A stretch of DNA of 64,000 nt from NCBI GenBank assembly GCA_965645245.1, contig OZ287067.1, positions 2,418,001 to 2,482,000 of the forward strand, written 5' to 3'. The stretch comes from Massalongia carnosa. Lineage: Eukaryota. The number at the start of each line of letters is the position of its first letter. Position 1 is the stretch's first letter. The position numbers and the translations under genes were made by a program. Shown here one piece after another: positions 8,032 to 45,259 of the stretch. The notes under the pieces are model-generated. The model ran no database searches and was not told the DNA's origin. It saw only the letters and a program-made list of their open reading frames with translations.

Positions 8032-8121
8032 CAGGCACGTGGGTGTCAAAAGTTTTTACCTAATGGGGGTCAGGGCCCCTCACCAAAATTTTCAAGGCAC
8101 CTCACCAAAATCATCAGAATT
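8032..8121 (-). mobile_element. Detached 3' end (TIR) of the Tc1/mariner element at 24467-25773
   Basis: TA-CAG terminus. GGGTGTCAAAAGTTTTTACCTAATG at 8041-8065 is identical to 24471-24495. It abuts the TA TSD of pogo copy A. Confidence 0.85.
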
Positions 8122-8123
8122 TA

Positions 8124-10641
8124 ATCGTCGGCTCGCTTAGCTCGTGGATCCGACAAAAATGCGAAAGCATTTTAGTCGGGGAAAGCGGTGCATCCCGGAA
8201 AGCGGTGCATCCAGCCAAAATCATCAAATTTTCATCTTTTTCACCTTTTACCCTCAATCATCTGGGTTAATCATTAGCTAACGTCATACAAAGCTTGAAA
8301 AACAGTGTCATCATCATAACCATCATCAAAATCATCCCCTCGACCCCCCTGATCCCTTCGATCCCCCCGATTCTTCCGGTTCCCCCCATACCCCGCATTC
8401 TCCTCATCCTCTTCATCCATGAAAGATACGAAATCACTTTGCATCTCGATGGAGCCCCCGAAATCTCTCTGCACCCATGATTCTTCATCTACTACAATCG
8501 CGGTTTCTTCCTCATCAATCGTAGCATTGACACGTGGATTTTTTCTGGCTTCTTTCTTCGCTTCCTCAGCTATCCACACCTCATTCGTCGCTTTCCATAA
8601 GGCCTCGGGGTCAGAAATTGCTTCATACAACTCAATTGGTATGGGATTGAGGGTTTTGGTCATTTCTTTTAATCGTTTGACTCGATCCCTTTCTGCTTTT
8701 CGAGCAGCCATTCCCTTGACGTGAATTTCGTCTCTTTCCATTCTCCATATCTTCATAAACTTATTGTCCACTCGTTTCTTTTCAGCCTTTTTTTCGTGTT
8801 GTAGCTTCATGGTTAAGGCATGCTCCGCATCTTCCTTAGTCAGTCCCAATTTTCCTGATTCAGGTCTCAGTCGTTTGCGAGAAAATTTTCTACTGTTTAA
8901 CTGTTGCATTCGTGTCTGTTGCCACATTTTCAGCTCCGTTTCCTTGAGAATCGAGTTCGAAATAACTTCTTTTGCATTGATAACGAATGAGTCAAATTCC
9001 TCAGCCCGAATGGGGTCACTCCATTGCATAGATTCCTGAATTTTTGGTCCCCATTGATGATCCAATCCATATTCTATGTCGGCTATTTCCCTTGGTTGGA
9101 TTTGACGAGGTAGGGGGGGTAATGGGAGCTGATTATCATTATTCGTCTCGGTCAGAATCTCAGTCAGATTGTTTGGATTGTTGGGATTGAATGTTTTCAG
9201 CTGTTGAATGCATGCTTTTGGATTAACAGGCCACATGCCCGACTTTTCAAAGGCATGTCGAATAGTGGATGGTTTGAAGGTATTATTCCTGATTTTGACC
9301 AAATCCTTCAGAAATTGCGTCAGGGAATACTCAATAAATGACTCCGATATAGTCTCTTGAATAGCCACATTATGCCAATGCTTATAGGGTTGAAATACAC
9401 CCACATCCAATGGCTGCATACAGTGGGTTAAATGCGGAATTAGTGGATAAGGACGAATGTGATTTTCATTGGCCAAAGCAACAAATTCAGGAGTAATATG
9501 ACTGCCGTGATTATCCATAAGCAACAATTTCCAATCCGCATTCGGTCCTGCATCTGAATTCTTGATAAGATGCTTCAGATATTCAACTGCTATCTTATCA
9601 GATGTAAATCCACTGTCCGAAGGCACGATATGCGTGCCCTGTGGCAGATCATCCGAAAACCATATGGCCATGATGTCATGACCTTGTATGATGACCATTG
9701 GAGGGGGGGGATAGTCGCCGGCAGCATTGATTGTCTCGATAATCGTCGCCGATCTACGGTTTTCCGGGCTGACCGCGTAGAATTGTTTAATTTCCATGGG
9801 AACAAGAATTTCCTGTCCCCTCATGCACCCAATGCGGAAGCCAGCTTCATCAAAATTCAGAATATTTCGTCTTTTTCGAATATTCAGTGTTTTCAATGCA
9901 TGCCTATAATCAGCAAACCATCTGGTCACATCCGATTCCTGAGCGGCTTCAAATCGGATCATGGACAATGGTTTTGTCTTGATTTTATGCAAATTGCTAC
10001 GCTTCCACCAATCCCGAAACCATCGTCTTGACGGCCCTACATCGAGGGGATTATGAGCTTTTTTCAAGCTTACAATGGCATTAAAAACGATTTGATGCGT
10101 AGGTGGAATTCCATGCACCAACAAAGATTGAATAAAACCATTGATAGCCTTTGTTTCATGATCTCTCAATATCTGATTTTGTCCTCCATTTTTCACTCCC
10201 GAACAACGACGAATGGAAGAAGTCAACGTTTTAACGTTGACGTTGAAAAGTCTAGATGCAGTCATCTTGGTTTCTTTGGGATTTGTCTTCAGAAATTGCT
10301 TCTCTTCCTCCATAGGATTGAGAATGGGGGCGTTACTATCCATGGAGTGGGTTAAGAATGATGGATAAAAAGGATGATTGAGGACGTATAGAAAAGCTGA
10401 ATATGCGACAATCCGATGAAATAACTAGCTATTTTAGGAATAAATGCTGGGAAGGCTATACTTATCAATATGAGGTGATTAAATCGTCAATAATCAAGGT
10501 AGTTATTCAGATGATTGAGGGTAAAAGGTGAAAAAGATGAAAATTTGATGATTTTGGCTGGATGCACGGGATGCACCGCTTTCCCCGACTAAAATGCGAA
10601 AGCATTTTAGTCGGATCCACGGAGCTAAGCGAGCCGACGAT
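8124..10641 (-). mobile_element. pogo/Fot1 DNA transposon, copy A (full length)
   Basis: TIRs of ~140 bp starting ATCGTCGGCTCGCTTAGCTC. TA at 8122-8123 and 10642-10643. Near-identical to 25774-28334. Confidence 0.97.
8274..10343 (-). CDS. pogo/Fot1 DDE_1 transposase, 689 aa, intact, intronless
   Basis: NFDEAGF, LLMDNHGSH and QPLDVGVF catalytic motifs, N-terminal HTH region and acidic tail. Confidence 0.95.
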   Translation of the reverse strand: MDSNAPILNPMEEEKQFLKTNPKETKMTASRLFNVNVKTLTSSIRRCSGVKNGGQNQILRDHETKAINGFIQSLLVHGIPPTHQIVFNAIVSLKKAHNPLDVGPSRRWFRDWWKRSNLHKIKTKPLSMIRFEAAQESDVTRWFADYRHALKTLNIRKRRNILNFDEAGFRIGCMRGQEILVPMEIKQFYAVSPENRRSATIIETINAAGDYPPPPMVIIQGHDIMAIWFSDDLPQGTHIVPSDSGFTSDKIAVEYLKHLIKNSDAGPNADWKLLLMDNHGSHITPEFVALANENHIRPYPLIPHLTHCMQPLDVGVFQPYKHWHNVAIQETISESFIEYSLTQFLKDLVKIRNNTFKPSTIRHAFEKSGMWPVNPKACIQQLKTFNPNNPNNLTEILTETNNDNQLPLPPLPRQIQPREIADIEYGLDHQWGPKIQESMQWSDPIRAEEFDSFVINAKEVISNSILKETELKMWQQTRMQQLNSRKFSRKRLRPESGKLGLTKEDAEHALTMKLQHEKKAEKKRVDNKFMKIWRMERDEIHVKGMAARKAERDRVKRLKEMTKTLNPIPIELYEAISDPEALWKATNEVWIAEEAKKEARKNPRVNATIDEEETAIVVDEESWVQRDFGGSIEMQSDFVSFMDEEDEENAGYGGNRKNRGDRRDQGGRGDDFDDGYDDDTVFQALYDVS

Positions 10642-10643
10642 TA

Positions 10644-10762
10644 GCATTTTGGGTTGTATGGCTGAGTTGGGTTGTATGGCTGAGTTGGGTTGTATGGCTG
10701 AGTTGGGTTGTATGGCTGGCTAGCACTAAGCGAGGCGACCGGAGCGATGTGGGTGGCACGGA
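10644..10762 (+). mobile_element. Detached 3' TIR of pogo element C, with 4 tandem 18-bp repeats
   Basis: GGCTGGCTAGCACTAAGCGAGGCGACC..GCGATGTGG..GTGGCACGGA-TA matches 30499-30558. GGGTTGTATGGCTG(AGTT) occurs 4 times at 10651-10718. Confidence 0.88.
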
Positions 10763-10894
10763 TAAGTTTTCCTGTATTTTTATTAGAAAACCGATGACAT
10801 TAATCGTCGGCAAAGCACCAGCGCATCATTTAAATTACTATCACATTTACTATCACTTTATTATATTATTATCACATCATAAATCATTGCTATC

Positions 10895-13800
10895 GCCCCT
10901 ACGAGGAAGAGAAGAATGGAGAACGACAAGAATGATGAATCCGGAGATTCGAGAAATGGCCTTCGCCAAGCCGGTGAGAGGTCGTCCACGCATCAGGACG
11001 CCAAGCACTAACGAAGAACTTCTCAACAATGACGATCAATTATGAGAGACACGAACACTCTCACAATTCTGCAGTACAACGTCAGGAAAAGTGCGAAAGG
11101 CACACTGATACCATTGCTTGCAGACGAGAAAACAAAGAATTTCGATATCATTGCTATTCAAGAACCATGGAAAAACCCTACAACGGCCCTACTACTCAAC
11201 CCCTATCAGAGCGGGTTTCACTTACTTTACAAATCCGGAGGAGACACACGCGTCTGCTTCTATATCAACGAGAAGATAGATCCAGAAAGTTGGGACGTGG
11301 AATATCCAACAGAAGATCTATGCACATTGAATATAGAAATCAGAATAGGAAGCGTGTTAAGAAAAATTCATATACACAACATCTACAATCCATCCCCGTT
11401 ATCTATCTCAGCGACGGATAGTCCGTCTACCCTACCGGCCGCCCTGCGTCAACTGAACGGGCCAGGAGAACACATCTTGCTAGGGGATTTCAACCTTCAT
11501 CATCCACATTGGGGAGGTGCGAGAGTGCGAGGTCAACACGAGGCGTCCGAACAGCTACTAGACATCATTGAAAGTAAAAATCTTTCGCTCACCCTGCCAA
11601 GAGGAACAGTGACATGGGAGGCAAGAAACTCATTCAGCACCATCGATCTGGTGTTCATGACGGAAGATCTCGTAGAAAGATTGGAACACTGTATCACAGT
11701 CCCGGAGCTGAATCAAGACTCAGATCACGTACCAATATCGACGAGGCTCCGCCTCACCTGTGAACCCCTTACGCCTCCCCGCCGAAGAGCCTGGAAACTC
11801 CTGGACATGAATAAACTGAGAGAAGTTGAGAGAAATGCCCCCACACCACGCGTCGTACGAGGCGCCAACGAAATTGATGCATACACTGCAGATATTCAAG
11901 ACTACCTCAAAAGAATCGTTCAGGAGGCGGTACCATGGGCTAAACCTAGTCCCCAGGCGAAGTCCTTCTGGAATAGAGAGTGCGAGGAGGCAACGAAGGA
12001 GACCCGCAGGCTTCGTAGGATCTGGACGGCGGAAAGAAATCTGTCAGACTGGAAAAACTACATCAGAATGAACGACAAAAAACAGAAAATCATCGGTAAG
12101 GCAAGAAATCTTCATTTCAGAGAACAAATGGCCGAAGTTGCAGCATCAAGAACAGGACTCTTCCGACTCGCAAAATGGGGCAAAGACAGAAGCGACGCAC
12201 CAAGAGAAATTCCAAAAATGCCCCCGTTAGCAACAGCACAAAATCCCAATACGATAGCAGACACGTTCGAGAAGAGAGTAAATATGCTGAAGAAGTCCTT
12301 CTTTCCCCCTCCTCCTAACGCGGATCTCGGGGATCTCGTAGGATATTCGTACCCTCCAACACCAGAATGTCCAGCACTGATAACGGAAGAAGAAGTGGCG
12401 GCGGCGCTGCGAAAGCCAAAGCCAGACAAAGCCCCAGGACCGGATGGAATCACAAATAGAATTCTCAAAGCCTGTTCAGAAAACCTAATCAAATTGCTGA
12501 CACCACTTTTTCAAGCATGTGTGAATGAAGGATATCATCCGAAAGTCTTTAAAATCGCCAACACTATCACGCTAAAGAAGCCAGGAAAAGGAAACTATAC
12601 GGATCCCAAGGCATGGAGACCCATAGCGTTGTTGAACACGTTGGGCAAAGCATTGGAATCCATTATAGCAAGGAAAATTAGCCATCTGACGGAAGAATTT
12701 AAACTGATCCCGGATACTCAAATGGGTGCAAGGCCGGGCCGCGGAACGGAAACAGCACTGGAGCTGCTCACTGAACAAGTGCACACCGTATGGAATCAGG
12801 GTAACGATAAAGTGGCATCTCTATTGAGCATAGACGTATCGGGAGCCTTTGACACCGTCTCTCATCGTAGGCTCATTCACAACATGAGAAAACGAAAGAT
12901 CCCAGAGTGGATAGCCAAATGGACGGATAGTTTCTTGAAAGAAAGAGAAACCACGCTCACGATTAATCAACGCACCACTAACGCATTTCCGCTGAGCATA
13001 GGAATCCCTCAGGGATCTCCTCTATCTCCCATTCTATATCTCTTTTACAATGCGGACCTCTTAGACATTTGCAATAGACCCAGCACAAACGCGGCAGGCA
13101 TAGGATTCGTAGACGACGTGAACATCCTGACATATGGCAAATCCACGGAAGAAAATTGCAAAACATTGAAAGAAATACACGAGAATTGCGAACGATGGGC
13201 GAAACGCCACGGCTCCGTGTTCGCGCCGCATAAATACGAGCTCATACATCTAGCAAAAAATCCCAAGAAATTCAATCTCGAAGCTTCCTTCACAGTAAAC
13301 GGCAAACTACTCAACGTCACGAAATCTGTACGAGTGCTGGGGGTGTACATAGACACGAGGCTCAATTGGTCGGCGCACTACAAAGAGATACAGAAGAAAA
13401 TGACGAGACAAACGAGAGCGCTGACTAGAATCGCCGCAGCCACTTGGGGTGCGACCCTCCTACAAGCCCGTCACGTGTACACGGCGGTGGTACGCCCGGC
13501 AATGACCCATGGTTCTCTGGTATGGCACACGCCGGAGGAAACACAAAAGCACGTCAAAGTCACGAGGAAAAGCAAACTCGAGATCGTACAAAACAAATGT
13601 TTACGAGTAGTAGCCGGAGCGTACAGGGCCACACCCATCGAGGTGTTACAGGCGGAAACATTCATCTGTCCATTGACGCAACATTTGGATCATCTGCAGG
13701 CCAAAGGTAGATCGAGGCTACAACACAACGGTCAGGCAAAAGTCATAGAACAGGCATGCGAGAAAATCAGAACGAGATTGAAAGGGAAAAGAGGGCGACA

Positions 13801-14682
13801 ACGGATTATTGGAGAAACACCGGGAGCTCGTAGACAGAGATGGGTGGCCAAGCTGACAGCTGAAGTATCAACAAAGAGAAAGCCCAAACGCACACCACCA
13901 TGGGAAAAAGCGGAGAATGCACAAGAGGAAAAACGAGCAGAATATGCCGCACTTCAAAGAGAAAGAGACGGAATCATAGCGAAACGATTTAAAGAAAAAT
14001 GGAAGGACAAATGGATAGCGTATCAATCAATACATACGCTTGATCCAACAATAGCACAGTCGGGTCCATTGCACAAAAACAGGTTGAACACGCACAAGCT
14101 GCTGAATAAGGCGCAAAGCTCCCTCGCAATTCAAATTAGAACAGAGAAAATCGGGTTAGCGAGTTTTCTATTCAAACGCAAGGTGCCAGACATTGAGTCC
14201 GCGGCCTGCCTGTGCGGAAGCCGCTTTCAAACGGCGAAACATGTGATAATGTTCTGCGGATTGCATAATAGAATCGATATGTTGCGTGCAGCTGGCTCGC
14301 TGGATTATCAAAAACTGATAACAGACCCCAAAGCGATCAAAATAATCACTGCATGGCTTATGCGTACGGGCATACTAACACAGTACACCATTGCCGCGCA
14401 AATGACGGAGCAATAATGAGAGGAGAATTGGTTTTTTCTTCTACTTATTTTCTTTTCTTCTCTTTTATTCTTGCACTTACTCAGGCGCATAACGGGTATA
14501 GCGGGTTTCCCAAACCGTAGAGATCAACCCGGGGAAAGAGCGAGTCCTCTACAAACCTGGTACGCAGGAGCAGTTTTTTACCCGTTCGGGTTTTCTGCCT
14601 TTATATAGCCTATGTAGTATCTCCCGCATGGGCCAGCTTCAGCTGGTGTCATATCGGCGTAAGAAAAATCAATCAATCAATC
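10895..14682 (+). mobile_element. Tad1-like LINE (non-LTR retrotransposon), 5'-truncated within ORF1
   Basis: 14-bp TSD AAATCATTGCTATC at 10881-10894 and 14683-14696. (AATC)n tail. The remnant ORF1 C-terminus ends at 11045. Confidence 0.95.
11042..14416 (+). CDS. LINE ORF2: APE endonuclease + reverse transcriptase + C-terminal CCHC, 1124 aa, intact
   Basis: QYNV, IQEP, GDFNLHH and SDH endonuclease motifs; KAPGPDG, PQGSPLSP and FVDD RT motifs; CLCG..QTAKHVIMFC. Confidence 0.97.
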   Translation: MRDTNTLTILQYNVRKSAKGTLIPLLADEKTKNFDIIAIQEPWKNPTTALLLNPYQSGFHLLYKSGGDTRVCFYINEKIDPESWDVEYPTEDLCTLNIEIRIGSVLRKIHIHNIYNPSPLSISATDSPSTLPAALRQLNGPGEHILLGDFNLHHPHWGGARVRGQHEASEQLLDIIESKNLSLTLPRGTVTWEARNSFSTIDLVFMTEDLVERLEHCITVPELNQDSDHVPISTRLRLTCEPLTPPRRRAWKLLDMNKLREVERNAPTPRVVRGANEIDAYTADIQDYLKRIVQEAVPWAKPSPQAKSFWNRECEEATKETRRLRRIWTAERNLSDWKNYIRMNDKKQKIIGKARNLHFREQMAEVAASRTGLFRLAKWGKDRSDAPREIPKMPPLATAQNPNTIADTFEKRVNMLKKSFFPPPPNADLGDLVGYSYPPTPECPALITEEEVAAALRKPKPDKAPGPDGITNRILKACSENLIKLLTPLFQACVNEGYHPKVFKIANTITLKKPGKGNYTDPKAWRPIALLNTLGKALESIIARKISHLTEEFKLIPDTQMGARPGRGTETALELLTEQVHTVWNQGNDKVASLLSIDVSGAFDTVSHRRLIHNMRKRKIPEWIAKWTDSFLKERETTLTINQRTTNAFPLSIGIPQGSPLSPILYLFYNADLLDICNRPSTNAAGIGFVDDVNILTYGKSTEENCKTLKEIHENCERWAKRHGSVFAPHKYELIHLAKNPKKFNLEASFTVNGKLLNVTKSVRVLGVYIDTRLNWSAHYKEIQKKMTRQTRALTRIAAATWGATLLQARHVYTAVVRPAMTHGSLVWHTPEETQKHVKVTRKSKLEIVQNKCLRVVAGAYRATPIEVLQAETFICPLTQHLDHLQAKGRSRLQHNGQAKVIEQACEKIRTRLKGKRGRQRIIGETPGARRQRWVAKLTAEVSTKRKPKRTPPWEKAENAQEEKRAEYAALQRERDGIIAKRFKEKWKDKWIAYQSIHTLDPTIAQSGPLHKNRLNTHKLLNKAQSSLAIQIRTEKIGLASFLFKRKVPDIESAACLCGSRFQTAKHVIMFCGLHNRIDMLRAAGSLDYQKLITDPKAIKIITAWLMRTGILTQYTIAAQMTEQ

Positions 14683-14706
14683 AAATCATTGCTATCTATA
14701 TCTACA

Positions 14707-16763
14707 ATGGATTCTGTATCCGTACAAACACGTATTAGTGATGCTAAAACATTCTTGTTGGAAAATCCTGACGAACGAACTGCATGCGCAGCTCAGATAT
14801 TCAAAATTCGGCCTACAACGTTGTACAGCTCTATTGCGACTGATAAGAAATCTTCTTTTTCTGATATGAAATCTCCTTCTAACAAGAACTCTTCTTCCAG
14901 TGCAAAAAGTGCAAGAGGTGGACAAAACAAGATACTTGAGGAGCATCAAGTAAAAGCGATTCATCACTTTATTCGATCCTTACTTGCACAGGGTATTCAA
15001 CCATCGCATGGAGTTGTATTCAATGCAATTGTCAGTTTAAAACGCGGGCAAAATCCTGAGTCGAGTGGACCTACTCTACGCTGGTTCAGAACATGGTGGA
15101 AAAAGAATAACCTACACAAGATCAAGACTAAGCCATTAGCAATGATACGATTCACCGCTGCACAAGAGAAGGATTTACAAGCATGGTTTGTAGATTATAG
15201 ACAAGCTTTAAAGACGTTACAGATCAAAACAAAGAAGAATATTGTCAATTTCGATGAGGCAGGCTTTCGTGTTGGGTGTATGAAAGGGCATCAAATTCTG
15301 GCACCCACAGACGTATTAGAAGTTAGATTCTATATTCTTATTCATTTATTCAGCAAGTTAAATATATATTTTAGTTCTATGCGACAAGTCCTGAAAATCG
15401 TAAATCTCTCACGATATTTGAATGCATCAATGCAGCGGGCGACTATCCTCCACCACCTTTAATTCTTATACAAGGACATGAAATCATGATGGACTGGTTT
15501 TCAAAAGAGCTGCCAAAGGGAACTCGAATTATACCTTCAGAAAACGGATTTACCTCTGACAAGATAGCACAGGTATTTCTTCAGCATTATATTGATCATT
15601 CAGACTCTGGGCCAGAAGCAGACTGGAAAATAATGCTCATGGATAATCATGGCAGTCATTGTACTCCTGAGTTCATAGCTCTTGCTAATATAAATCATAT
15701 TCGTCCTTATCCACTTATACCGCACCTTACAGACTGTATGCAGCCGCTTGATGTTGGAGTATTTCGACCTTATAAACACTGGCATGATATGGCAGTTCAA
15801 GATGCTCTACTGGAATTTAATGTTGAGTCTACATTACAGCGATTTCTTGCGGATCTTACCAAGATACGTGATAATACTTTCAAGAAATGTACTATTCGAA
15901 GTGCTTTTGAGAAATCAGGAATGTGGCCTGTTAATGCTAAAAACTGCATCTCACTGCTTAAAACTTTCAAGCCGCCTGATGCTCAAGAAAAGCTACACAA
16001 TAAAGAAAAAGAGCCTACTCTTCCAATCTTGCCTCATATTCAGCCAACATCCTCAATGGATGTTGAAATAGGACTTCAAACATGGCAGAAGAAAATTCAA
16101 CAAGGAATGTTGTGGAGTGATCCGGCTCGCTCAGAGCAATTTGAGTCGTTTGTTAATGATACAAAAACCGTTTGTACACAAGCTACGTTTAATGATATTC
16201 AATTATCTATATATCAGAAAAGAAGAGAAGATGATTTAAAACAGAAATCTACCTCTCGTAAGCGATTACGAACCTTAGGTTCAGGATTAGGGCTTACTAA
16301 AGAGAATGCTGAGGAGATGATTGCAGCAAAGGAAAAACAAGCTAAAGAAACAGAAGCAAAGAAGCAGCATCAGACATGGATGAAGATTTGGCGTATGGAA
16401 AGAGACGCCAAATATGCCGAAGGAGTGATTGCTCGAAAGCAAGAAAGAAATCGTTTACAACAAATTAAAGAGCTTTCAAAACAAGATCTTGCTATTTCCT
16501 CCGAGCATCTTATTCCTATTCCCGATCCCGAAGCAATTTGGAAGGCAACGGATGCTACTTGGCAAGAAGAAGAGAGAAAGAAAGCGAAAAAGACTAAATC
16601 TCAAGTATATAATGAAGATGAAGATGAAGATGAGGCGGAGACAACATTCATCACAGATGTTACAGTTGGTTCTTCTTTGCAAAGAGATTTTCTGCCGTTT
16701 GATGAAGACGATACTGATGGAGGCAACGAGTCTGACAATGATGTACAATACAAGAACAATTAG
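14707..16763 (+). CDS. pogo/Fot1 transposase of element D, one intron (15322-15374)
   Basis: MDSVSVQ start. Removing GTTAGA..TTTTAG joins VLE to FYATSPENRKS, collinear with the copy A protein. NFDEAGF, MDNHGSH and QPLDVGVF present. Confidence 0.9.
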
Positions 16764-17852
16764 GATATTACTAGGTTTCAGCTCTTTATTAAAGCGGCAA
16801 TAGTAATTTAATGATATGATAATAAATAATAATGTGATAGTAAATGTAATAGTAATTTAAATGATGCGGTGGTGCTTTAGTGATGTGGTGGTGGTTTAAC
16901 GTTGCGAGCCTACGTGCCTACGAAGCTTCGCTTTCCCCGACTAGAAGCGAATGCTTCTTGGAGGGAGAGGATTAAGCGAGCGACTAGCCGACGATTACTT
17001 TCCGTGAAAATACGTGAATACAGACTTGACAAACGTTTCATGACTGAAACCTGATCTCATTCTAGATCTTACAGGAATTGTATAGGCACACAAGATGCCG
17101 CCCTCAGTTCTTCTCTTATGATCTCTTTATCAATTCAATGACATCATCGGACGGCAAACTGGGAATCAGCCTGAGACTAATTGCAGATACTGCAGGGGCC
17201 TGGAAGCTCAAAATGAGCCCAACTTGAAGGCAAACTCAACATTCCCAAACATTAAACCCTACTCCGTACACTAGTCAGATCTAGATAAAATCAACACACT
17301 CCCCCATTGTGCTAGCGCTGTCTGCTTTGCATCTGCTTTGCAGTGTAACTGGTTACAGAGTACAGAGTACTTCGTACCTACGTTGCACAAATCCAGGTGT
17401 GATGGACATCGTGCATGCTCGTTGCCCCGCTTTTCCTCCGAGAAAAGGTTCAACACTGAGGCTTGAAAGCCAGTCACCCGCAGAAGCTCCTCTGTTTGGT
17501 GCAGGAAATGCCGGGCATGACACATAACGATGGCTAATAGGGAATGAGGATGGAAAAGTGGCGTGGTATGGTGATGCGCTGAAGTGCTGAATGGGGCCTC
17601 ATCGTCTTTTATACCTTGCTCTCCTGCAGTGTTCCTTATCTTCAGTCTCGGCCGATGCAACATGCACTGGATGAAACTTGATTTGGGGCCGTACCACCGT
17701 ACTCGAACCTGGCCCTGTTGAGCTCGACCTTCCACTCACCACGCGCTTACCCTCCCATTGATAACTATAATAATCGTAATAGATTTGGCCATTCTTCTTA
17801 CTTGATAAAACTTCCAGTCTCCTTGTGCTCGTTGTCGAAACCCAAGCTCATC

Positions 17853-21380: not shown

Positions 21381-23308
21381 TTATCTAAGGTCTTCATGTT
21401 CCGCGTTCTCCAGGGCTTGCATCGTAAGCGAATACCTTGCGCTCTTCGTTGCTAGGCGCGTGATGTTTTTACCGGCCTCTTTCCAGAAATTACACGCCTT
21501 GTTTGTGTTGATAAGGTCCTTGGTGATGGGCTGGAAGAATATGGTCTTGGCAGGGAGGATGTTAGGGATCCACACCGTTTTCATCACCCGATGGAGGTTG
21601 TTGCTATCGTTGCTCGCGACTCCCCATTCCGGAGTGCCGGGAACTCGGCCTGGGTTCGGATTCCCGTGGATAGCATGGGAGGCGAAGTAGGCCTGGAACT
21701 TGGGGGCGAAGTTGTCGAAGACCCTGGCGACGGTGTTGGCTACAATGTTTGACGTATTAAGCGCCTGCTTGACTGCCGCGGCAACGTCAATGTAGGAGTT
21801 CCAATATAGCGGGAAGAGGTCGGCGCCATGGAAAGCAAGGTCGTAGTTTTGGAAAATGTTGTATTGCAGCATGTAGGTATTGGCTTTGTCGTGGTAAGCG
21901 TCATAGATATCACGCGTGTTACAGGTAAAGACCGCGTCTCGGATGACGTCTGCAACACGCTCGGTCTGATTGCCCCAGTAAGGGAAGCCTTTGGCAGGGT
22001 ATTTCGCTTGCACGGCAGTTCTCAAGTCCTTCAATTCGTCCTCGGGGAAAAAATCCAGGAGGAATTTATCGAATGTGCTCACGTCAGTGATATGCTTTGG
22101 GACAAACTTGCCACTCTCGTCATGCACATGGGATACAATAATGGATTCGATGCCTTTCCAGTAATTTCCTTGAGAAGATATTAGCTTTTGGTCACGAAAG
22201 GAAATCCCTGCTAGAGGTGTATACCTTCACTGAGTGCTACCACAGGAAGTTGTTTGATGAGCTTGCCATCGATGGCTGGTCCGACTGGGAACAGTCCTGT
22301 GCAAGGTTTGGTGGTCTGAAATAGCTGTTGATTCGCAATGGCCAATGTACTACTGTTTTTTTTTTGCAAACATTCTATGCTGTGATCGCTGCAATTGGCA
22401 AGCTCAGCAAAATCATTGTAGACTTTATCTAATGTCCCAGTGCGACTCCATTGCCACTGAAAGGCAGGACTCTGAAGAATCGCCTTCGAAAAAAGGGGAT
22501 CCGTTTTGCCGTCATTCTGGATCAAATGATGAAGAATGGATCCTGCACCCGCAGACTCTCCCCACACGCTGACTTTGGAATTGTCGCCACCTACCAGATG
22601 AACGTAATCACGAACCCACTCCAGTGTGAGACGTTGATCGTAGAGACCGGCGTTGGGAAGTGCATTTTCCTCCATATAGGAGCCTGCCAACCAGCCAAAT
22701 GCACCAACCCGGTAATTTCCGGCAATGTAGATGACCTTACCATTGTTGGCGGCTGCAGCCTGTAGTACACCAGTTCCGTTATAGAATGGAAGACCGAAAG
22801 AGTTCTTGGAGCCGAAGAGGTATGCACCGCCAAAAAACCAAACAATCACTGGGAGGGGTACAGCGTCGGGCTTAAAGGCAGCGTGAGGTACGTAGATGTC
22901 CAGGAACAAACAGTCCTCACTAGGAGGATCTAATGGTTCAGGGGCAGTATTTGGCGCGCCTATGGTTTCCCCCTTATTGCAAGGGCGTGTAATATCAACT
23001 TGATAGCAGACTGGCCCGTAGCTGCTGTCCTGAACTGTACTATTGTCCTTGATTGGGGCTGGATAAGAGGAAGCTTTGAACCGCGAGGTTCCATTGGTTG
23101 TACGTCCAAAGCGTACGTTTGAGAAGGTGAAAAACTGTTTATTGCTTTCAGCAAAGGTTCAGTGTCTCTATATTACGGCACTCACATCTCCCTTGGAATC
23201 GTAGCTGGTGGCTTGCCATGTTCCCCATGGAAGTGTCAGCTTTGGGTAGTCAACTGTAGCACTGATCAGAGGGCTCAAGAGTCCGAGGAGAAAGAGGGTG
23301 CCGAGCAT
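21381..23308 (-). CDS. Secreted type-B carboxylesterase/lipase, multi-exon
   Basis: Signal peptide MLGTLFLLGLLSPLISA; SEDCLFLDIYVP, FGGAY, NYRVGAFG, NAGLYDQ, GESAG (catalytic Ser) and HGAD. Confidence 0.93.
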
Positions 23309-24466: not shown

Positions 24467-25773
24467 CAGCGGGTGTCAAAAGTTTTTACCTAATGAGGGT
24501 AGGATTTTTAAGCGATAATCCCCTTCCTCCCCTAATCAACCACGGCACCATCTACTCCACCACCACAGGCCAAAAAATCCCCTGATGCTGATACCATCAG
24601 AAAAACCTGCTTTTTCATGCTTTTGATCATCGGCCGGAATGTCATCATCAAAGATGTCTGCGAGCAGGAGAGCATCAAGCTCGATCGAGGAAAATATTGG
24701 CTGAAGCAACGCCAGCGTCTTGAAGACGTCGCCTATCGACGACGTTCTCGTAGCGGTCGACCTAAAAAAGTGAGCATTTAGTTGATAAATCAAATGCTGA
24801 ATTCACATACAAATAGCGTTCGCGATCAGCCGTACACCGTACAATTGGAGCACTTTCATATAGATGCAACGCGACGTACACTGCAAAGAGGATTCAGTGC
24901 TCGCAAACCTCGTGCTGCTCGATTTAAAAAAGCGAAGGTGAAAACGCTCAGTCAGAAAAACGAGCGAATACGAGTTCTATACGGGAAAGAGCATGAAAAT
25001 CATACTATTGAGAATTTCTGGCAGTACTTTCATTTCACGGATGAGGCTCATTTCGACCCGGATCAAACGTACCAAGAGCGAGTTCTTCGAGAGGAAGGCA
25101 CTAGATACGAGTCAGAAAACATGCAAAAGATGCCGGACATGAAGGGAGTAAAACTGCATTTGGCCGCTTCTATTTCGTGGCATCATAAAGGGCCGCTGAC
25201 GTTTTACAATGACGAGCACGACGCGCCTGAAATTCAGGTTCACAAGCCCAGAAAACCACACAAGTCGAAGTATGAAACGGAGCATGATCATCGTCAGCGA
25301 ATAGCTGAATGGGAGGCATCTCTACCTCACGATTTAGAAATTAAATCAAAAGGCAATAGCATGACTCAAGCTTACTTTACGGAGCGTCTGCTTCCCGGCT
25401 ATATGACTGAAATTCATGAATGTCGTGTTTTTCATGATCGATTTTGCATCTTTCAAGAAGATAACGATCCTAGTCACGGCACACGATCTACAGACAATAT
25501 CGTACGTAGATTTAAGGCAGCTAGCTGGATTGAAACGTTGAATCATCCTCCGCAATCCCCTGATCTCAATCCAACGGAAGGGGTATTGAATATTCTGAAA
25601 CAGCGAGTTAGACGGCGACGGTGCAGCAATGTGAGAGAGTTAAAACGGGTGATTCTAGATGAATGGAACAAAATATCTATAGATGAAATTTGGGCCCGAA
25701 TTAAGGAGATGCCTGATCGATGTAAGAGATTAATAGCGACGGAGGGCAAAGCAATAAAATCCGATCTATGGTA
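24467..25773 (+). mobile_element. Tc1/mariner element (5' TIR + pseudogenised transposase); its 3' end is displaced to 8032-8121
   Basis: TIR CAGCGGGTGTCAAAAG. FTDEAHF, QEDNDPSH and SPDLNPTE motifs. The N-terminus has a frameshift and a TAG at 24779-24781. Pogo B inserted at the TA of the stop codon. Confidence 0.9.
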
Positions 25774-28334
25774 ATCGTCGGCTCGCTTAGCTCCGTGGAT
25801 CCGACTAAAATGCGAAAGCATTTTAGTCGGGGAAAGCGGTGCATCCCGGAAAGCGGTGCATCCAGCCAAAATCATCAAATTTTCATCTTTTTCACCTTTT
25901 ACCCTCAATCATCTGAATAACTACCTTGATTATTGACGATTTAATCACCTCATATTGATAAGTATAGCCTTCCCAGCATTTATTCCTAAAATAACTAGTT
26001 ATTTCATCGGATTGTCGCATATTCAGCTTTTCTATACGTCCTCAATCATCCTTTTTATCCATTATTCTTAACCCACTCCATGGATAGTAACGCCCCCATT
26101 CTCAATCCTATGGAGGAAGAGAAGCAATTTCTGAAGACAAATCCCAAAGAAACCAAGATGACTGCATCTAGACTTTTCAACGTCAACGTTAAAACGTTGA
26201 CTTCTTCCATTCGTCGTTGTTCGGGAGTGAAAAATGGAGGACAAAATCAGATATTGAGAGATCATGAAACAAAGGCTATCAATGGTTTTATTCAATCTTT
26301 GTTGGTGCATGGAATTCCACCTACGCATCAAATCGTTTTTAATGCCATTGTAAGCTTGAAAAAAGCTCATAATCCCCTCGATGTAGGGCCGTCAAGACGA
26401 TGGTTTCGGGATTGGTGGAAGCGTAGCAATTTGCATAAAATCAAGACAAAACCATTGTCCATGATCCGATTTGAAGCCGCTCAGGAATCGGATGTGACCA
26501 GATGGTTTGCTGATTATAGGCATGCATTGAAAACACTGAATATTCGAAAAAGACGAAATATTCTGAATTTTGATGAAGCTGGCTTCCGCATTGGGTGCAT
26601 GAGGGGACAGGAAATTCTTGTTCCCATGGAAATTAAACAATTCTACGCGGTCAGCCCGGAAAACCGTAGATCGGCGACGATTATCGAGACAATCAATGCT
26701 GCCGGCGACTATCCCCCCCCTCCAATGGTCATCATACAAGGTCATGACATCATGGCCATATGGTTTTCGGATGATCTGCCACAGGGCACGCATATCGTGC
26801 CTTCGGACAGTGGATTTACATCTGATAAGATAGCAGTTGAATATCTGAAGCATCTTATCAAGAATTCAGATGCAGGACCGAATGCGGATTGGAAATTGTT
26901 GCTTATGGATAATCACGGCAGTCATATTACTCCTGAATTTGTTGCTTTGGCCAATGAAAATCACATTCGTCCTTATCCACTAATTCCGCATTTAACCCAC
27001 TGTATGCAGCCATTGGATGTGGGTGTATTTCAACCCTATAAGCATTGGCATAATGTGGCTATTCAAGAGACTATATCGGAGTCATTTATTGAGTATTCCC
27101 TGACGCAATTTCTGAAGGATTTGGTCAAAATCAGGAATAATACCTTCAAACCATCCACTATTCGACATGCCTTTGAAAAGTCGGGCATGTGGCCTGTTAA
27201 TCCAAAAGCATGCATTCAACAGCTGAAAACATTCAATCCCAACAATCCAAACAATCTGACTGAGATTCTGACCGAGACGAATAATGATAATCAGCTCCCA
27301 TTACCCCCCCTACCTCGTCAAATCCAACCAAGGGAAATAGCCGACATAGAATATGGATTGGATCATCAATGGGGACCAAAAATTCAGGAATCTATGCAAT
27401 GGAGTGACCCCATTCGGGCTGAGGAATTTGACTCATTCGTTATCAATGCAAAAGAAGTTATTTCGAACTCGATTCTCAAGGAAACGGAGCTGAAAATGTG
27501 GCAACAGACACGAATGCAACAGTTAAACAGTAGAAAATTTTCTCGCAAACGACTGAGACCTGAATCAGGAAAATTGGGACTGACTAAGGAAGATGCGGAG
27601 CATGCCTTAACCATGAAGCTACAACACGAAAAAAAGGCTGAAAAGAAACGAGTGGACAATAAGTTTATGAAGATATGGAGAATGGAAAGAGACGAAATTC
27701 ACGTCAAGGGAATGGCTGCTCGAAAAGCAGAAAGGGATCGAGTCAAACGATTAAAAGAAATGACCAAAACCCTCAATCCCATACCAATTGAGTTGTATGA
27801 AGCAATTTCTGACCCCGAGGCCTTATGGAAAGCGACGAATGAGGTGTGGATAGCTGAGGAAGCGAAGAAAGAAGCCAGAAAAAATCCACGTGTCAATGCT
27901 ACGATTGATGAGGAAGAAACCGCGATTGTAGTAGATGAAGAATCATGGGTGCAGAGAGATTTCGGGGGCTCCATCGAGATGCAAAGTGATTTCGTATCTT
28001 TCATGGATGAAGAGGATGAGGAGAATGCGGGGTATGGGGGGAACCGGAAGAATCGGGGGGATCGAAGGGATCAGGGGGGTCGAGGGGATGATTTTGATGA
28101 TGGTTATGATGATGACACTGTTTTTCAAGCTTTGTATGACGTTAGCTAATGATTAACCCAGATGATTGAGGGTAAAAGGTGAAAAAGATGAAAATTTGAT
28201 GATTTTGGCTGGATGCACCGCTTTCCGGGATGCACCGCTTTCCGGGATGCACCGCTTTCCGGGATGCACCGCTTTCCCCGACTAAAATGCTTTCGCATTT
28301 TTGTCGGATCCACGGAGCTAAGCGAGCCGACGAT
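25774..28334 (+). mobile_element. pogo/Fot1 DNA transposon, copy B (full length)
   Basis: TA TSD at 25772-25773 and 28335-28336. Same TIRs as copy A. Four copies of the 17-bp GGATGCACCGCTTTCCG repeat at 28211-28278. Confidence 0.97.
26080..28149 (+). CDS. pogo/Fot1 DDE_1 transposase, 689 aa, same protein as copy A
   Basis: The ORF-track translation is the same as 8274-10343. Confidence 0.95.
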   Translation: MDSNAPILNPMEEEKQFLKTNPKETKMTASRLFNVNVKTLTSSIRRCSGVKNGGQNQILRDHETKAINGFIQSLLVHGIPPTHQIVFNAIVSLKKAHNPLDVGPSRRWFRDWWKRSNLHKIKTKPLSMIRFEAAQESDVTRWFADYRHALKTLNIRKRRNILNFDEAGFRIGCMRGQEILVPMEIKQFYAVSPENRRSATIIETINAAGDYPPPPMVIIQGHDIMAIWFSDDLPQGTHIVPSDSGFTSDKIAVEYLKHLIKNSDAGPNADWKLLLMDNHGSHITPEFVALANENHIRPYPLIPHLTHCMQPLDVGVFQPYKHWHNVAIQETISESFIEYSLTQFLKDLVKIRNNTFKPSTIRHAFEKSGMWPVNPKACIQQLKTFNPNNPNNLTEILTETNNDNQLPLPPLPRQIQPREIADIEYGLDHQWGPKIQESMQWSDPIRAEEFDSFVINAKEVISNSILKETELKMWQQTRMQQLNSRKFSRKRLRPESGKLGLTKEDAEHALTMKLQHEKKAEKKRVDNKFMKIWRMERDEIHVKGMAARKAERDRVKRLKEMTKTLNPIPIELYEAISDPEALWKATNEVWIAEEAKKEARKNPRVNATIDEEETAIVVDEESWVQRDFGGSIEMQSDFVSFMDEEDEENAGYGGNRKNRGDRRDQGGRGDDFDDGYDDDTVFQALYDVS

Positions 28335-28336
28335 TA

Positions 28337-30556
28337 CTCCTCTACATACATCGGGATTTTTTTCAACAATTCCTTCATTCCATCTTTTGATGCTATTCAT
28401 ACTTTTGGTCATCTTCAACTTTCGATGAGCTTTGGTTTGTCTAGCCACCTTGCCCAGTGCCAAAGAATATCGCTTTTCCCATGCGATCATTCGATCCTTC
28501 TCCCTCTAAGCCTCCTGATTCTGTCTATCACGAATCATTGATCAAGCCTTTCGTGCAAAAGTATGCCCCCAATCTGAAGTATCTTATTGCTCTCTCGTTT
28601 GCGTGCTTTTCGAACTTTTTCGGCCTTTGTTTGTTGATCCCATCTGTCACGGAATCGCTTCGCACCCTCCCGCTTGTCCTGATCGGGTTAGTATTTAACA
28701 GGGCCCATTGCTGTGAAACCTCACCCATCGTGCTCAGGCGTTCTTCTGCCGCCCTCAGCGCACTATCAATCTCCTACAATCCGTACCCAATCTCAACGTC
28801 TCCACTATCCAGGCTTATGACTAAGAGTGCTTCAGCACAGATAAAGGCGGGATAGGTCAAAGCAATCATGTTAAGGAAATTAGTATAGGAACAGAGATGG
28901 GGCAAGTCGAGAATAGGAGAGTTGAAAGCCATGGCTATAAAGTCTATGTGGTTTCCCAGGTGTTTAGAGCTCTTCATCGGACGTCTTGTGTATTATTCTC
29001 AACTTCTAGTTTTAGCATGTCTAGATATCCGTTCTGCAAGATAGAGTTTTGTATCTCTCCAGCCCTCCCCTGACACCATCGTTGTTCGAGAAGTTCTCCT
29101 TTTCGGACTTCCGAAACAGCCCCCTTTACAAATTTTGCTATCATTTGTGTAAGTTCATCCGAATAACGGGAATGCATCGTAATGTCTGCGGCTACTGTAA
29201 TTTATTGTCTGACAGTTCTAGGGGTTTCTTGTATTGATTGAATCGACGAAGGTGGAGTAGTCTCGCGAAGGGGTGATAAACTCTCTCTGAATTATATGGA
29301 ATTAGGCCGATTTTTCTCCATGCAGACGTAATCGTTGTTGATATGAAGGCCTTTGCCCGAAAGGTGTTGAATGCAGCTAGAAATTCCACCTTCGAGAACG
29401 TTTCATCATCGTTCTGAATGATCTCATTGACAGCCTCGGAATGTCAATGCTTTAAAGGCTGAAACACACATACATCAAGCAGTTGCAATAAGTGAGTGGT
29501 ATGTGATGGTAATTCAAATGAAATGATGTTATGAGCGTCACAATACTCTAAAAACTCACGAGTATGATGAGATTCATGTTCATTCATAACCAACAGTCTT
29601 CATGCCCCCTTTCCAATGTTTCGAGAGTGTTTATCGAAGTGTTTAATCCATTGCAAGGCCAGCCAGTCATTTGAATAACCTGATTCAGCAGTAGTAATAA
29701 GAAAATCATCGCTAAGATCGTTGAGGAAAAAGAGAGCGAGAATGCTGATACCAGTCAAAATCAGCATAGGGGGAATGTCTCGTCCAGTCCCATTGATACA
29801 TTCCACTCCGGTCAGTGATTCTCTGTTTGATGGATCGTTATTATAGATCCTTCGGTCTTTTGATGCACTAACTATTCAATCATTACGTGCCATGCCAATG
29901 CGATACCCGGTTTCATCCAAAATCTACTGATCTTGAGGATCTATGCCAACTCATCAATCACCTCTTTGTGTTTTGTAAAGTGAGCCATTAGCAACTCCAA
30001 ATCATGCTCATTTTTTCGCTCAACAGCTAGAGCTTTTCGTCGAACTTTGAATAAATCGGGCTGACGCTTTAACCATCTCTTGGTCCAATGCGACCCGATC
30101 AAAGGAGGCGGTTCCGAAACAGGAGCTGTTTGACGAAGAATAGAATTTGCTGCGATTTCCACCATGTGCAATCGGGCAGGTATGTTCAAAGAGTCCAGTT
30201 TCTTGATATACATATATAGGGCCGACTTTTGATCAGGTTTCAGACGTCTAGTATGCAGTCCTCGTATCTCTGGTTTAGATGGGGCCCCATGATATCGAGA
30301 ACGAAGTCTTTCTCTAGGCACTTCAAATTCTCGTGCAATTGCTCGAAGTTTCGCGTTTTCCGCGTGTTTAAGGCGTCAATAGCCTTCGTAATGCGACTTT
30401 CGATTTCAATATATGATTCAGGCATGGTGGTGATGGATGATAAATTGTTGAAAGGTGAATGGTTGAAATTTGACGATTTGGGTTGTATGGCTGATATGGC
30501 TGGCTAGCACTAAGCGAGGCGACCCGAGCGATGTGGCAGTGTGTGGGTGGCACGGA
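28337..30556 (-). mobile_element. Degenerate pogo/Fot1 element C (transposase pseudogene from 30425)
   Basis: MPESYIEIESRITKAIDAL, WTKRWLKRQPDL, DETGYRIG, ECINGTGRDIPP and SGYSNDWLALQWIKHF fragments with stops and frameshifts. The TIR ends ..GGCACGGA-TA at 30556-30558. Confidence 0.88.
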
Positions 30557-30699
30557 TAATCCGTTATGAGCATCGCGCACTAACTTCGCTTCCTAGGGTG
30601 TTGAGGAAGATTTAAAAATGGAAAGTTTTGCAAAGCTAACGCTCTGGAAACAGTAAATCTTGGGCGTCAATCTGTTTCTTGAAGAGGTTGAGCTTCAAA

Positions 30700-45113: not shown

Positions 45114-45259
45114 GTGTGGCCATTCTAAATGAATGGGCTTTTTCGATGTGGTGAAAGGCTTCCGCCTGAGGGGTGTGGCCATTCCGAATGAATGGGCTTT
45201 TTCGATGAGGTGAAAGGCTTCCGCCTGAGGGGTGTGGCCATTCCGAATGAATGGGCTTT
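45114..45259. repeat. Tandem repeat, 59-bp unit, ~2.5 copies
   Basis: GTGTGGCCATT starts at 45114, 45173 and 45232; the units are nearly identical. Confidence 0.92.

What the first reader, a model, noticed from the sequence alone, without database searches (positions are those of the whole stretch)
8032..30558. 15-kb inversion between two inverted pogo copies, recorded by two split host transposons
Seen: copies A (8124-10641, -) and B (25774-28334, +) are near-identical inverted repeats, but each has mismatched flanks. A sits between the Tc1 3' TIR (8032-8121) and element C's 3' TIR (10644-10762). B sits between the Tc1 body (24467-25773) and element C's body (28337-30556). Both host TIR pairs are now direct rather than inverted. 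Reverse-complementing 10644-25771 and removing A and B restores both hosts. Tc1 then reads ..GATCTATGG-TA-AATTCTGATG.., keeping its TAA stop, and C regains inverted ends with TA on both sides. Inference: ectopic recombination or hybrid-end transposition inverted the block holding the GH55 and carboxylesterase genes, and it may still flip.
Basis: partly seen in the sequence, partly recalled or inferred. Interest (0 to 1): 0.85.

Follow-up and report, generated by a model that had tools for sequence, protein, structure and literature searches.

The report
Transposon-made 15-kb inversion, fungal genome
Two almost identical copies of a pogo-type jumping gene lie head to head around a 15-kb stretch of a fungal chromosome, and the broken halves of two older jumping genes beside them show that the stretch was turned around, which is a tidy example of a well-known kind of rearrangement.

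Summary
Pogo copies A (8124-10641, -) and B (25774-28334, +) are inverted repeats. Their core matches at 2386 of 2388 bases, not 100%. All four junctions carry TA.

A's flanks are the missing ends of the two older elements that B interrupts. These are a Tc1-like element and a decayed pogo/Tc5-like element, C. Both host TIR pairs are now direct repeats. Re-inverting 10644-25771 in silico gives a 1397-bp Tc1 and a 2341-bp C with inverted ends.

Independent support comes from a lichen-metagenome run of another strain. A multi-copy Tc1 contig there runs from the body across one TA into the exact reverse complement of 8091-8120. A C-family contig there shows the predicted 9 bases before 28335.

So a derived, pogo-mediated inversion is the best reading (about 0.8). 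Ectopic recombination (about 0.45) and one-step hybrid-element insertion (about 0.33) cannot be told apart here. A mis-join at the 2.5-kb repeat (about 0.1) cannot be excluded, because only short-word contigs were available. Flipping is untested.

This is a known kind of event, seen with Galileo in Drosophila and Dici1 in a yeast. It is a new member of that kind, of modest interest.

The parts
8032..8121 (-). 3' terminal 90 bp of the Tc1-like element, including its TIR. It is now cut off from its body and lies in the same orientation as the 5' TIR.
   Evidence: The 25-mer 8041-8065 is identical to 24471-24495 on the same strand. An X1 contig joins the Tc1 body to the reverse complement of 8091-8120.
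8122..10643 (-). Pogo copy A with its TA on each side (element proper 8124-10641). Intact transposase ORF 8274-10424 (-).
   Evidence: DDE_1 at E 7.2e-15. TIRs of about 140 nt. Core 2386/2388 identical to B.
10644..10762 (+). Terminal 119 bp of element C (TIR with 17-nt subterminal repeats), now direct with respect to C's other end. Followed by C's TA at 10763-10764.
   Evidence: X1 loose end CCAAAATGC before 28335 equals the reverse complement of 10644-10652.
10803..16997 (+). Old pogo-like relic D, with ends TA-ATCGTCGGC...GCCGACGAT-TA. It is interrupted by the LINE.
   Evidence: DDE_1 at E 1.7e-11 for 15375-16763. 51% aa identity to the pogo A/B transposase. Ends read. Inverted arms 10812-10864 / 16826-16878.
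10895..14682 (+). Intact non-LTR (LINE) retrotransposon inside D, with a 14-nt target duplication at 10881-10894 and 14683-14696.
   Evidence: ORF 11033-14416 has Exo_endo_phos, Exo_endo_phos_2 and RVT_1. TSD read. X2 contigs with 0 differences at 15-30 times single-copy depth.
17682..19979 (+). GH55-type beta-1,3-glucanase gene (exons; the 3' end was not delimited).
   Evidence: PF12708 at E 9.1e-55 and 3.2e-28. PDB 5m5z_A at 2.8e-103 and 3eqn_A at 6.4e-103.
21381..23158 (-). Carboxylesterase gene (two long ORF pieces).
   Evidence: COesterase at E 3.3e-55 for 22211-23158.
24467..25773 (+). Tc1-like element body, from the 5' TIR to the TA target of the pogo insertion. Transposase ORF 24782-25774.
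   Evidence: DDE_3 at E 5.6e-9. Restored element of 1397 bp with a 34-column TIR alignment, 1 mismatch and 1 gap. The single-copy X1 contig stops aligning at 24465.
25772..28336 (+). Pogo copy B with its TA on each side (element proper 25774-28334). ORF 25999-28149, 689 aa from the first ATG at 26080.
28337..30558 (-). Element C body, a decayed pogo/Tc5-like transposon with several frameshifts and stops, plus its outer TA at 30557-30558.
   Evidence: HTH_Tnp_Tc5 at E 3.1e-8 for 29941-30375. Weak DDE_1 fragment at E 0.05. Restored element of 2341 bp with a TIR of about 72 nt.

Best explanation
The 15.1-kb segment 10644-25771 is a real, derived inversion made through two sister copies of an active pogo/Fot1-type DNA transposon. 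The segment holds C's end, relic D with a LINE, the GH55 gene, the carboxylesterase gene and the Tc1 body.

The ancestral order was: flankL, Tc1 (reverse), block (reverse), C, flankR. One pogo copy inserted at a TA near the 3' end of Tc1. A second copy inserted at a TA 119 bp from one end of C, in the opposite orientation. It was probably a local hop from the first, with the donor site restored from the sister chromatid. A crossover between the two inverted copies (non-allelic homologous recombination) then flipped everything between them. Each copy kept one original flank and gained one flank from the other site.

Shown: the anatomy, the reciprocal fit, and that intact family members join the fragments as predicted. 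Inferred: that the assembly is right, that two insertions preceded the flip, and that the exchange was homologous recombination.

No gene is broken. Both breakpoints lie inside older transposons.
For: The two copies are inverted and identical at 2386/2388 core bases, with the same 689-aa ORF.

All four flanks pair reciprocally. The Tc1 body (24467-25773) plus the reverse complement of 8032-8121 gives a 1397-bp element with matching TIRs and a TAA stop. The reverse complement of 10644-10762, plus TA, plus 28337-30556 gives a 2341-bp element with TIRs of about 72 nt and TA on both sides. Both host TIR pairs are direct in the window (0 chance matches in 100 shuffles).

There is an independent check in run X1, a different study. 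Its single-copy contig differs from the window at 30 letters and 28 gap positions over 7.5 kb. A 982-nt Tc1 contig there (depth 391.7 against 28 for the single-copy contig) covers 24848-25774. It then continues for 55 letters, and the 30 shown are the exact reverse complement of 8091-8120. A contig starting at 28335 is preceded by CCAAAATGC, the reverse complement of 10644-10652.

There is no deletion or duplication at either site. By the passages read in Delprat et al. 2009, this excludes aberrant transposition from two separate sites.

The window runs through a 3.8-kb LINE whose X2 contigs are identical at 15-30 times single-copy depth. I infer that the assembly used reads long enough to span a 2.5-kb repeat.

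At 26120 the only contigs laid from X2, X4 and X5 carry C where both A and B carry A. This hints that A and B are each other's nearest relatives.
Against: Nothing here proves the physical arrangement. All runs were served as k=31 contigs, and both arrangements share all four junction sequences.

Chimerism of the two copies is the signature that separates recombination from hybrid-element insertion. It cannot be shown, because the copies are nearly identical and no parental copies are known. Near-identity is exactly what the one-step rival predicts.

No un-inverted chromosome was seen, with or without pogo copies.

The Tc1 5' end is flanked by CA rather than TA, and its TIR is 5 nt shorter than the 3' TIR. 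That copy is therefore slightly decayed.

The C evidence from another strain is only 9 letters. It is supplemented by one ambiguous joint, X4 10642<->28380 on opposite strands, depth 852.3, shorter side 31.
Confidence: 0.45

Rival explanations
1. One-step hybrid-element insertion (aberrant transposition). A single pogo copy sat in Tc1 or in C. After replication, the transposase paired the left end on one sister chromatid with the right end on the other. It then integrated this 'hybrid element' into a TA 15 kb away on the same chromosome. That single event yields two full copies in opposite orientation, the inverted segment between them, and TA at all four junctions. The inversion is real under this reading too.
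For: The outcome has the same topology as recombination, except that the two copies start identical rather than chimeric (Delprat et al. 2009, passages read). Here the cores are 2386/2388 identical and the ORFs are identical. Both copies carry A at 26120 where the only family contigs laid carry C. The two sites are only 15 kb apart, and A and B are the only copies of this family in the 64-kb window. The element looks active: intact 689-aa ORF, DDE_1, long TIRs, and summed contig depth about 10-18 times single-copy in X2. One event is needed instead of three.
Against: The copies are not strictly identical. There are two transitions and four terminal indel or flip differences, which must then be later mutations. 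The passages read name the mechanism without tying it to an element family; references 13 and 14 cited there are on P elements, and the Ac/Ds papers were seen only in the search listing. Near-identity is also expected if the second copy arose by a local hop before recombination.
Confidence: 0.33
2. Assembly artefact. The chromosome has the un-inverted order with one pogo copy inside Tc1 and one inside C, in opposite orientation. The assembler joined the wrong flanks through the identical 2.4-kb core.
For: Swapping the paths inside the identical core turns one arrangement into the other without changing any junction sequence, so nothing in the contigs contradicts it. The differences between A and B lie only within about 300 bp of the ends. 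Consensus polishing of a repeat can produce that pattern.
Against: The same contiguous window passes through a 3.8-kb LINE that is identical to many other copies (X2 records 9-12 with 0 differences at depth 7400-14713 against 480). That calls for reads longer than the 2.5-kb pogo. This is inference; the read type is not on record.
Confidence: 0.1
3. No inversion. A-block-B is a composite transposon that moved as a unit, or the fragments beside A come from unrelated Tc1 and C copies by coincidence.
For: Two inverted copies of one element around cargo genes look superficially like a composite transposon.
Against: A composite insertion would have one target sequence split across its outer flanks. 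Here the outer-left flank (Tc1 end) pairs with the inner-right flank (Tc1 body), and the inner-left flank (C end) pairs with the outer-right flank (C body), each at base precision across a single TA. A coincidence would need four independent exact fits.
Confidence: 0.02

Closest known systems
Galileo-generated inversions of Drosophila buzzatii (2z3, also 2j and 2q7; Delprat et al. 2009, PMC2775673; abstract and passages read)
   Same: There are two copies of one DNA transposon in opposite orientation at the two breakpoints. Flanking target sequences are exchanged between them. There is no deletion or duplication. The same two candidate mechanisms apply.
   Different: There the un-inverted chromosomes were sequenced, the 7-bp TSDs are informative, and both copies were shown to be chimeric, which settled the mechanism. 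Here the TSD is the palindrome TA, so the record is kept by two split older transposons instead. The copies are too alike to test chimerism, and no un-inverted chromosome was seen. The element is pogo (Tc1/mariner superfamily) rather than P-superfamily, and the host is a fungus.
Inversion between identical Dici1 DNA-transposon copies in inverted orientation in the yeast Diutina catenulata (PMC13469147; passages read)
   Same: A fungal genome, identical DNA-transposon copies in inverted orientation, and an intrachromosomal inversion attributed to ectopic recombination.
   Different: That case was found by comparing strains. This one is inferred from one assembly plus family contigs. It is in a filamentous, probably lichen-associated ascomycete, and the element family differs.
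Hybrid element insertion of P elements and alternative transposition of Ac/Ds (the mechanism is described in Delprat 2009, with P-element papers as its references 13-14; Sharma et al. 2021, PMC8225341, and the other Ac/Ds papers seen as search listing only)
   Same: They predict an inversion bounded by two copies in opposite orientation, made in one transposase-driven step, with a nearby target.
   Different: The cited work was not read beyond those passages and listings.
Intramolecular replicative transposition of bacterial IS elements
   Same: It gives the same final topology.

Membership tests
TE-mediated inversion by ectopic recombination (Galileo type) | Two homologous TE copies in opposite orientation, one at each breakpoint | tested here: met
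   2386/2388 core identity, opposite strands.
TE-mediated inversion by ectopic recombination (Galileo type) | Exchanged flanks or target sites between the two copies, with no deletion or duplication | tested here: met
   The TA duplication itself is uninformative. The split Tc1 and C halves are exchanged and rejoin across a single TA each. The Tc1 join is confirmed by an intact family contig, and the C join by 9 letters.
TE-mediated inversion by ectopic recombination (Galileo type) | Both copies chimeric with respect to the parental copies | tested here: inconclusive
   There are only 2 substitutions and 4 terminal indel or flip differences, and no parental copies are available. Within-copy against between-copy TIR comparison gave no signal.
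TE-mediated inversion by ectopic recombination (Galileo type) | Un-inverted arrangement present in other chromosomes or isolates | not testable with these tools
   No genome is held. Only k=31 contigs were served. There is no orthologous metagenome contig.
Hybrid element insertion | The two copies are identical (sister-chromatid origin) | tested here: inconclusive
   The core is 99.92% identical and the ORF is identical, but the termini differ.
pogo / Fot1-Tc5 group of the Tc1/mariner superfamily (copies A and B) | DDE_1-type transposase domain | tested here: met
   PF03184 at E 7.2e-15, 55.4 bits against a cutoff of 22.
pogo / Fot1-Tc5 group of the Tc1/mariner superfamily (copies A and B) | TA target duplication and terminal inverted repeats | tested here: met
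   TA at all four junctions. TIRs of about 140 nt.
pogo / Fot1-Tc5 group of the Tc1/mariner superfamily (copies A and B) | N-terminal CENP-B/Tc5-type helix-turn-helix | tested here: inconclusive
   No Pfam hit at E<=1 for residues 1-240. Residues 53-146 align weakly (24% identity, E 0.003) to the HTH_Tnp_Tc5-bearing ORF of element C.
Tc1-like element (host 1) | DDE_3 transposase, TIRs, TA duplication | tested here: met
   PF13358 at E 5.6e-9, 36.4 bits against a cutoff of 28.6. The TIR is met. TA is present at 8030-8031, but CA at 24465-24466, so the duplication is only half kept.
Composite transposon | The outer flanks of the pair form one contiguous target site | tested here: not met
   The outer flanks belong to two different elements. 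Each pairs with an inner flank instead.

The most novel reading that the evidence does not exclude
The pair arose in a single transposase-driven step. This would be a hybrid-element (sister-chromatid) insertion by a pogo-family transposase, giving a natural record of that mechanism in the Tc1/mariner superfamily and in a lichen-associated fungus. The two near-perfect 2.4-kb inverted copies would still exchange, by gene conversion and occasional crossover. The block carrying the GH55 glucanase and the carboxylesterase would then exist in both orientations within populations or thalli. The clustering of all A/B differences within about 300 bp of the element ends fits continuing exchange in the core, but consensus polishing could also produce it.
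Probability: 0.25. Interest if true: 0.5.

Novelty: new member of a known kind. Interest (0 to 1): 0.3.

Why it matters
This is a clean, base-resolved case of a DNA transposon reshaping a fungal chromosome. The usual record, exchanged target duplications, is erased because pogo duplicates the palindrome TA. Two older nested transposons keep the record instead.

It shows that this genome carries recently active pogo, LINE and Tc1 families with no sign of RIP. Near-identical repeats therefore persist as substrates for further rearrangement.

It also offers a simple system for asking whether pogo-type elements make inversions by recombination or by aberrant transposition. Four primers or a few long reads would be enough, and the same data would show whether such inversions flip.

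No gene is disrupted, so no phenotypic effect is predicted.

Tried and rejected
1. Whole genome. None is held for this window, so intact Tc1, C and pogo copies elsewhere in the genome could not be fetched.

2. Earlier scan notes. There are none for this genome, for look-alike stretches, or for the keywords tried.

3. Orthologous locus in metagenome contigs. I scanned with the carboxylesterase ORF. This returned 7 loci, the best at 50% identity over residues 212-315 and the rest at 31-36%. None is an orthologue, so there is no gene-order comparison.

4. Orientation in other strains from run contigs. No contig bridged a pogo copy or linked a flank to the block, and contigs end at the repeats.

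5. Depth gaps in X1. Run X1 shows zero summed depth over the LINE (11282-14616) and the pogo interior (25956-27289).

6. X4 joint 10642<->28380 on opposite strands (depth 852.3 against about 890 for single-copy contigs; shorter side 31). The simplest reading is a C-family paralogue that joins C's end to C's body in the predicted relative orientation but lacks 43 nt. The table does not fix which way the two pieces face, so I do not count it as evidence.

7. Joints at 10827<->16954, 16885->16953 and 16894->16939 (X2 and X4, at single-copy depth). They fall in the hairpin-rich right end of relic D. I take them as word-graph folding or small assembly differences unrelated to the inversion.

8. Within-copy against between-copy TIR comparison, as used for Galileo. 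Each terminal difference is private to one terminus, so it says nothing about chimerism.

9. Using depth at the 17-nt TIR units to count copies of the A/B subtype. The rows at 28233, 28250 and 28267 are mutually inconsistent, so I dropped it.

10. Composite-transposon and coincidence readings. Both are rejected (see rivals).

11. Solved structures for the pogo transposase. There are none at E<=0.01.

12. Literature searches. Judged by titles and abstract starts, none of the 12 papers listed by each of the fungal-pogo search (45 papers matched) and the lichen search (15 matched) describes a pogo-mediated inversion in a lichen-forming fungus. Only listings were read, apart from the two papers cited.

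Full report
OBSERVATION

The repeat finder reports inverted arms 8180-10567 and 25856-28243, 2388 nt long with 15288 nt between them. A self-BLAST extends the match to 25768-28243 against 10647-8180, at 99.39% over 2476 columns. A direct comparison shows the core is 2386/2388, not perfect. The two transitions are at 25994 (A in B, G in A at 10429) and 26063 (T in B, C in A at 10360). Both lie upstream of the first ATG at 26080, so the 689-aa reading frames are identical.

With their TA dinucleotides the copies measure 2522 bp (A, 8122-10643) and 2565 bp (B, 25772-28336). They differ in 49 alignment columns:
- a flipped 4-nt hairpin loop and an 8-nt deletion in A's right terminus
- the two substitutions
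- 34 extra nt (two 17-nt units) in B's right terminus
- a 1-nt deletion in A's left terminus

All four junctions read TA next to ATCGTCGGC... or ...GCCGACGAT.

WHAT THE PIECES ARE

- Pogo copies A and B. The 716-codon open frame carries DDE_1 (E 7.2e-15). With TA duplications and TIRs of about 140 nt, this is a pogo/Fot1-type element. An N-terminal Tc5-type HTH is only weakly indicated.
- Tc1-like element. The ORF 24782-25774 carries DDE_3 (E 5.6e-9).
- Element C. It carries HTH_Tnp_Tc5 (E 3.1e-8) and a weak DDE_1 fragment. It has several frameshifts and stops, so it is an old pogo/Tc5-like element.
- The block between the copies. It holds an old pogo-like relic D (10803-16997; 51% aa identity to A/B). 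D is split by an intact LINE (10895-14682) with endonuclease and RT domains and a 14-nt target duplication. The block also holds a GH55 beta-1,3-glucanase gene (PDB 5m5z and 3eqn at about 1e-103) and a carboxylesterase gene.
- The rest of the window. It has fungal markers: Fung_rhodopsin, an AflR-like domain and a ferric reductase. One run holding the block is labelled lichen metagenome. The host is therefore an ascomycete, probably lichen-forming or lichen-associated.

THE RECORD OF THE INVERSION

A 25-mer of the Tc1 TIR occurs only at 8041-8065 and 24471-24495, both on the + strand, with none expected by chance. C's ends are likewise direct repeats: 10704-10752 against 30488-30536 at 92%, and 97.6% with E 4e-13 over 42 nt.

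Joining the Tc1 body (24467-25773) to the reverse complement of 8032-8121 gives a 1397-bp element. Its TIR alignment spans 34 columns with 1 mismatch and 1 gap, and the transposase frame ends in TAA across the joint. Joining the reverse complement of 10644-10762, one TA and 28337-30556 gives a 2341-bp element. Its TIRs are about 72 nt with 2 mismatches and one 9-nt gap, and it has TA outside both ends.

The outer-left flank therefore pairs with the inner-right flank, and the inner-left flank with the outer-right flank. That is the signature of an inversion whose breakpoints lie in the two pogo copies. It is not the signature of a composite transposon.

INDEPENDENT CHECK WITH PUBLIC RUNS

Five runs from three studies hold the single-copy block. 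I laid contigs of X1, X2, X4 and X5 on 10615-30614 at 90% likeness.

X1 comes from a different study. Its 7511-nt single-copy contig differs from the window at 30 letters and 28 gap positions. In X1, a 982-nt Tc1 contig (depth 391.7 against 28, so a collapsed multi-copy family; 26 differences) covers 24848-25774. It then runs on for 55 letters. The 30 letters shown are the exact reverse complement of 8091-8120 (0 mismatches, the only match, 0 expected).

A C-family contig in X1 that begins at 28335 is preceded by CCAAAATGC, the reverse complement of 10644-10652. That is a 9-letter match to a specified prediction.

The single-copy X1 contig stops aligning at 24465, which fixes the Tc1 boundary.

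WHAT COULD NOT BE SHOWN

All runs are served as k=31 contigs. The two arrangements differ only in which flank pair is connected through the identical 2.4-kb core, so they share every junction sequence. No contig spans a copy. Nothing here excludes a mis-join by the assembler, and nothing shows both orientations.

My reason to think the assembly is right is indirect. The same window passes through a 3.8-kb LINE whose X2 contigs are identical to it at depth 7400-14713 against 480 for single-copy contigs. Long reads must therefore have placed it. No genome is held. No orthologous metagenome contig was found. No earlier notes exist.

MECHANISM

According to the passages read in Delprat et al. 2009, TE-induced inversions come from ectopic recombination between two inverted insertions or from aberrant transposition. 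Aberrant transposition from two separate sites leaves deletions or duplications, which are absent here. Hybrid-element insertion from sister chromatids gives the same product as recombination, except that the copies are identical rather than chimeric.

Here the copies are nearly identical. They share A at 26120, where the only family contigs laid from X2, X4 and X5 carry C. They lie 15 kb apart and are the only two members of the family in 64 kb. All of this points to sister copies. It fits either a local hop followed by recombination or a one-step hybrid-element insertion. Chimerism cannot be tested with two substitutions and no parental copies.

I rate recombination slightly higher (0.45 against 0.33), because it is the mechanism documented for natural TE-bounded inversions, including in a fungus (Dici1 in Diutina catenulata). 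The margin is small.

All A/B differences lie within about 300 bp of the element ends. That fits continuing gene conversion in the core, but consensus polishing of a repeat could also produce it.

DIRECTION AND TIMING

Tc1 and C must have inserted as whole elements, so the restored order is ancestral and the window's order is derived (barring an odd number of further flips). The event is recent, given two substitutions between the copies.

The usual dinucleotide indices show no RIP on any element: TpA/ApT is 0.43-0.75 and (CpA+TpG)/(ApC+GpT) is 1.24-1.79 (the thresholds are recalled). Identical repeats can therefore persist in this genome.

COMPARISON AND VERDICT

This works like the Galileo inversions of Drosophila buzzatii and the Dici1 inversion of Diutina. 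It meets their defining features except demonstrated chimerism and a sequenced un-inverted chromosome.

Its one distinctive point is how the event is recorded. The target duplication is the palindrome TA and so is uninformative. Two nested older transposons serve as the witnesses instead.

It is a new member of a known kind. It breaks no gene, and it deserves modest interest (0.3). The boldest reading still open is a natural one-step hybrid-element insertion by a pogo transposase, with a block that still flips. I put this at about 0.25.

Noticed in passing
window 10587-10590 versus 25814-25817: The same terminus of the two pogo copies holds a perfect 13-bp-stem hairpin (CCGACTAAAATGC-loop-GCATTTTAGTCGG). 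Its 4-nt loop is flipped (GAAA against TTTC, read from outside inward) in copy A relative to copy B. This is a micro-inversion of a hairpin loop, of the kind made by template switching at palindromes.
   Followed up: partly
window 28210-28276, 8180-8212, 25831-25863, 10555-10583: The pogo TIRs contain a 17-nt unit (GGATGCACCGCTTTCCG-like) in variable number. Counting the terminal variant unit, there are four units at B's right end, two at A's left end and at B's left end, and about one and a half at A's right end. At 28233 and 28267, high-depth family contigs from X2 and X4 carry an extra A in this unit.
   Followed up: partly
window 10895-14682: An intact LINE: a 1127-codon frame with endonuclease and RT, a (TCAA)n-like tail, and a 14-nt target duplication AAATCATTGCTATC. 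X2 and X5 contigs are identical to it at many times single-copy depth, so the family looks recently active. A diverged relative (about 72% identity) lies at 41437-43578 on the minus strand.
   Followed up: partly
window 16864-16953: Contigs of X2 and X4 at single-copy depth skip 44, 67 or 90 nt here. This is in the hairpin-rich right end of relic D. It is either word-graph folding at palindromes or a small local error or polymorphism in the assembly.
   Followed up: no
window 24465-24475 versus 8030-8045: The Tc1 5' end is flanked by CA instead of TA, and its TIR lacks 5 nt present in the 3' TIR (CAGCGGGTG against CAGGCACGTGGGTG). This copy is slightly decayed, although its transposase frame is open for 330 codons.
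   Followed up: no
whole window: There is no RIP signature on any repeat. The window is a nest of DNA transposons. Further DDE_1 and HTH_Tnp_Tc5 ORFs lie at 54849-56276 and 59525-60157, and a C-like relic at 57291-57712 is 81-84% identical to 28640-28996.
   Followed up: partly
window 46257-47150 (-): An ORF with a weak AflR (aflatoxin-regulator type) domain, E 2e-5. This hints at a secondary-metabolite regulator near the transposon nest.
   Followed up: no
window 45114-45259: A short tandem duplication: 87 nt at 96.6% identity, offset by 59 nt.
   Followed up: no
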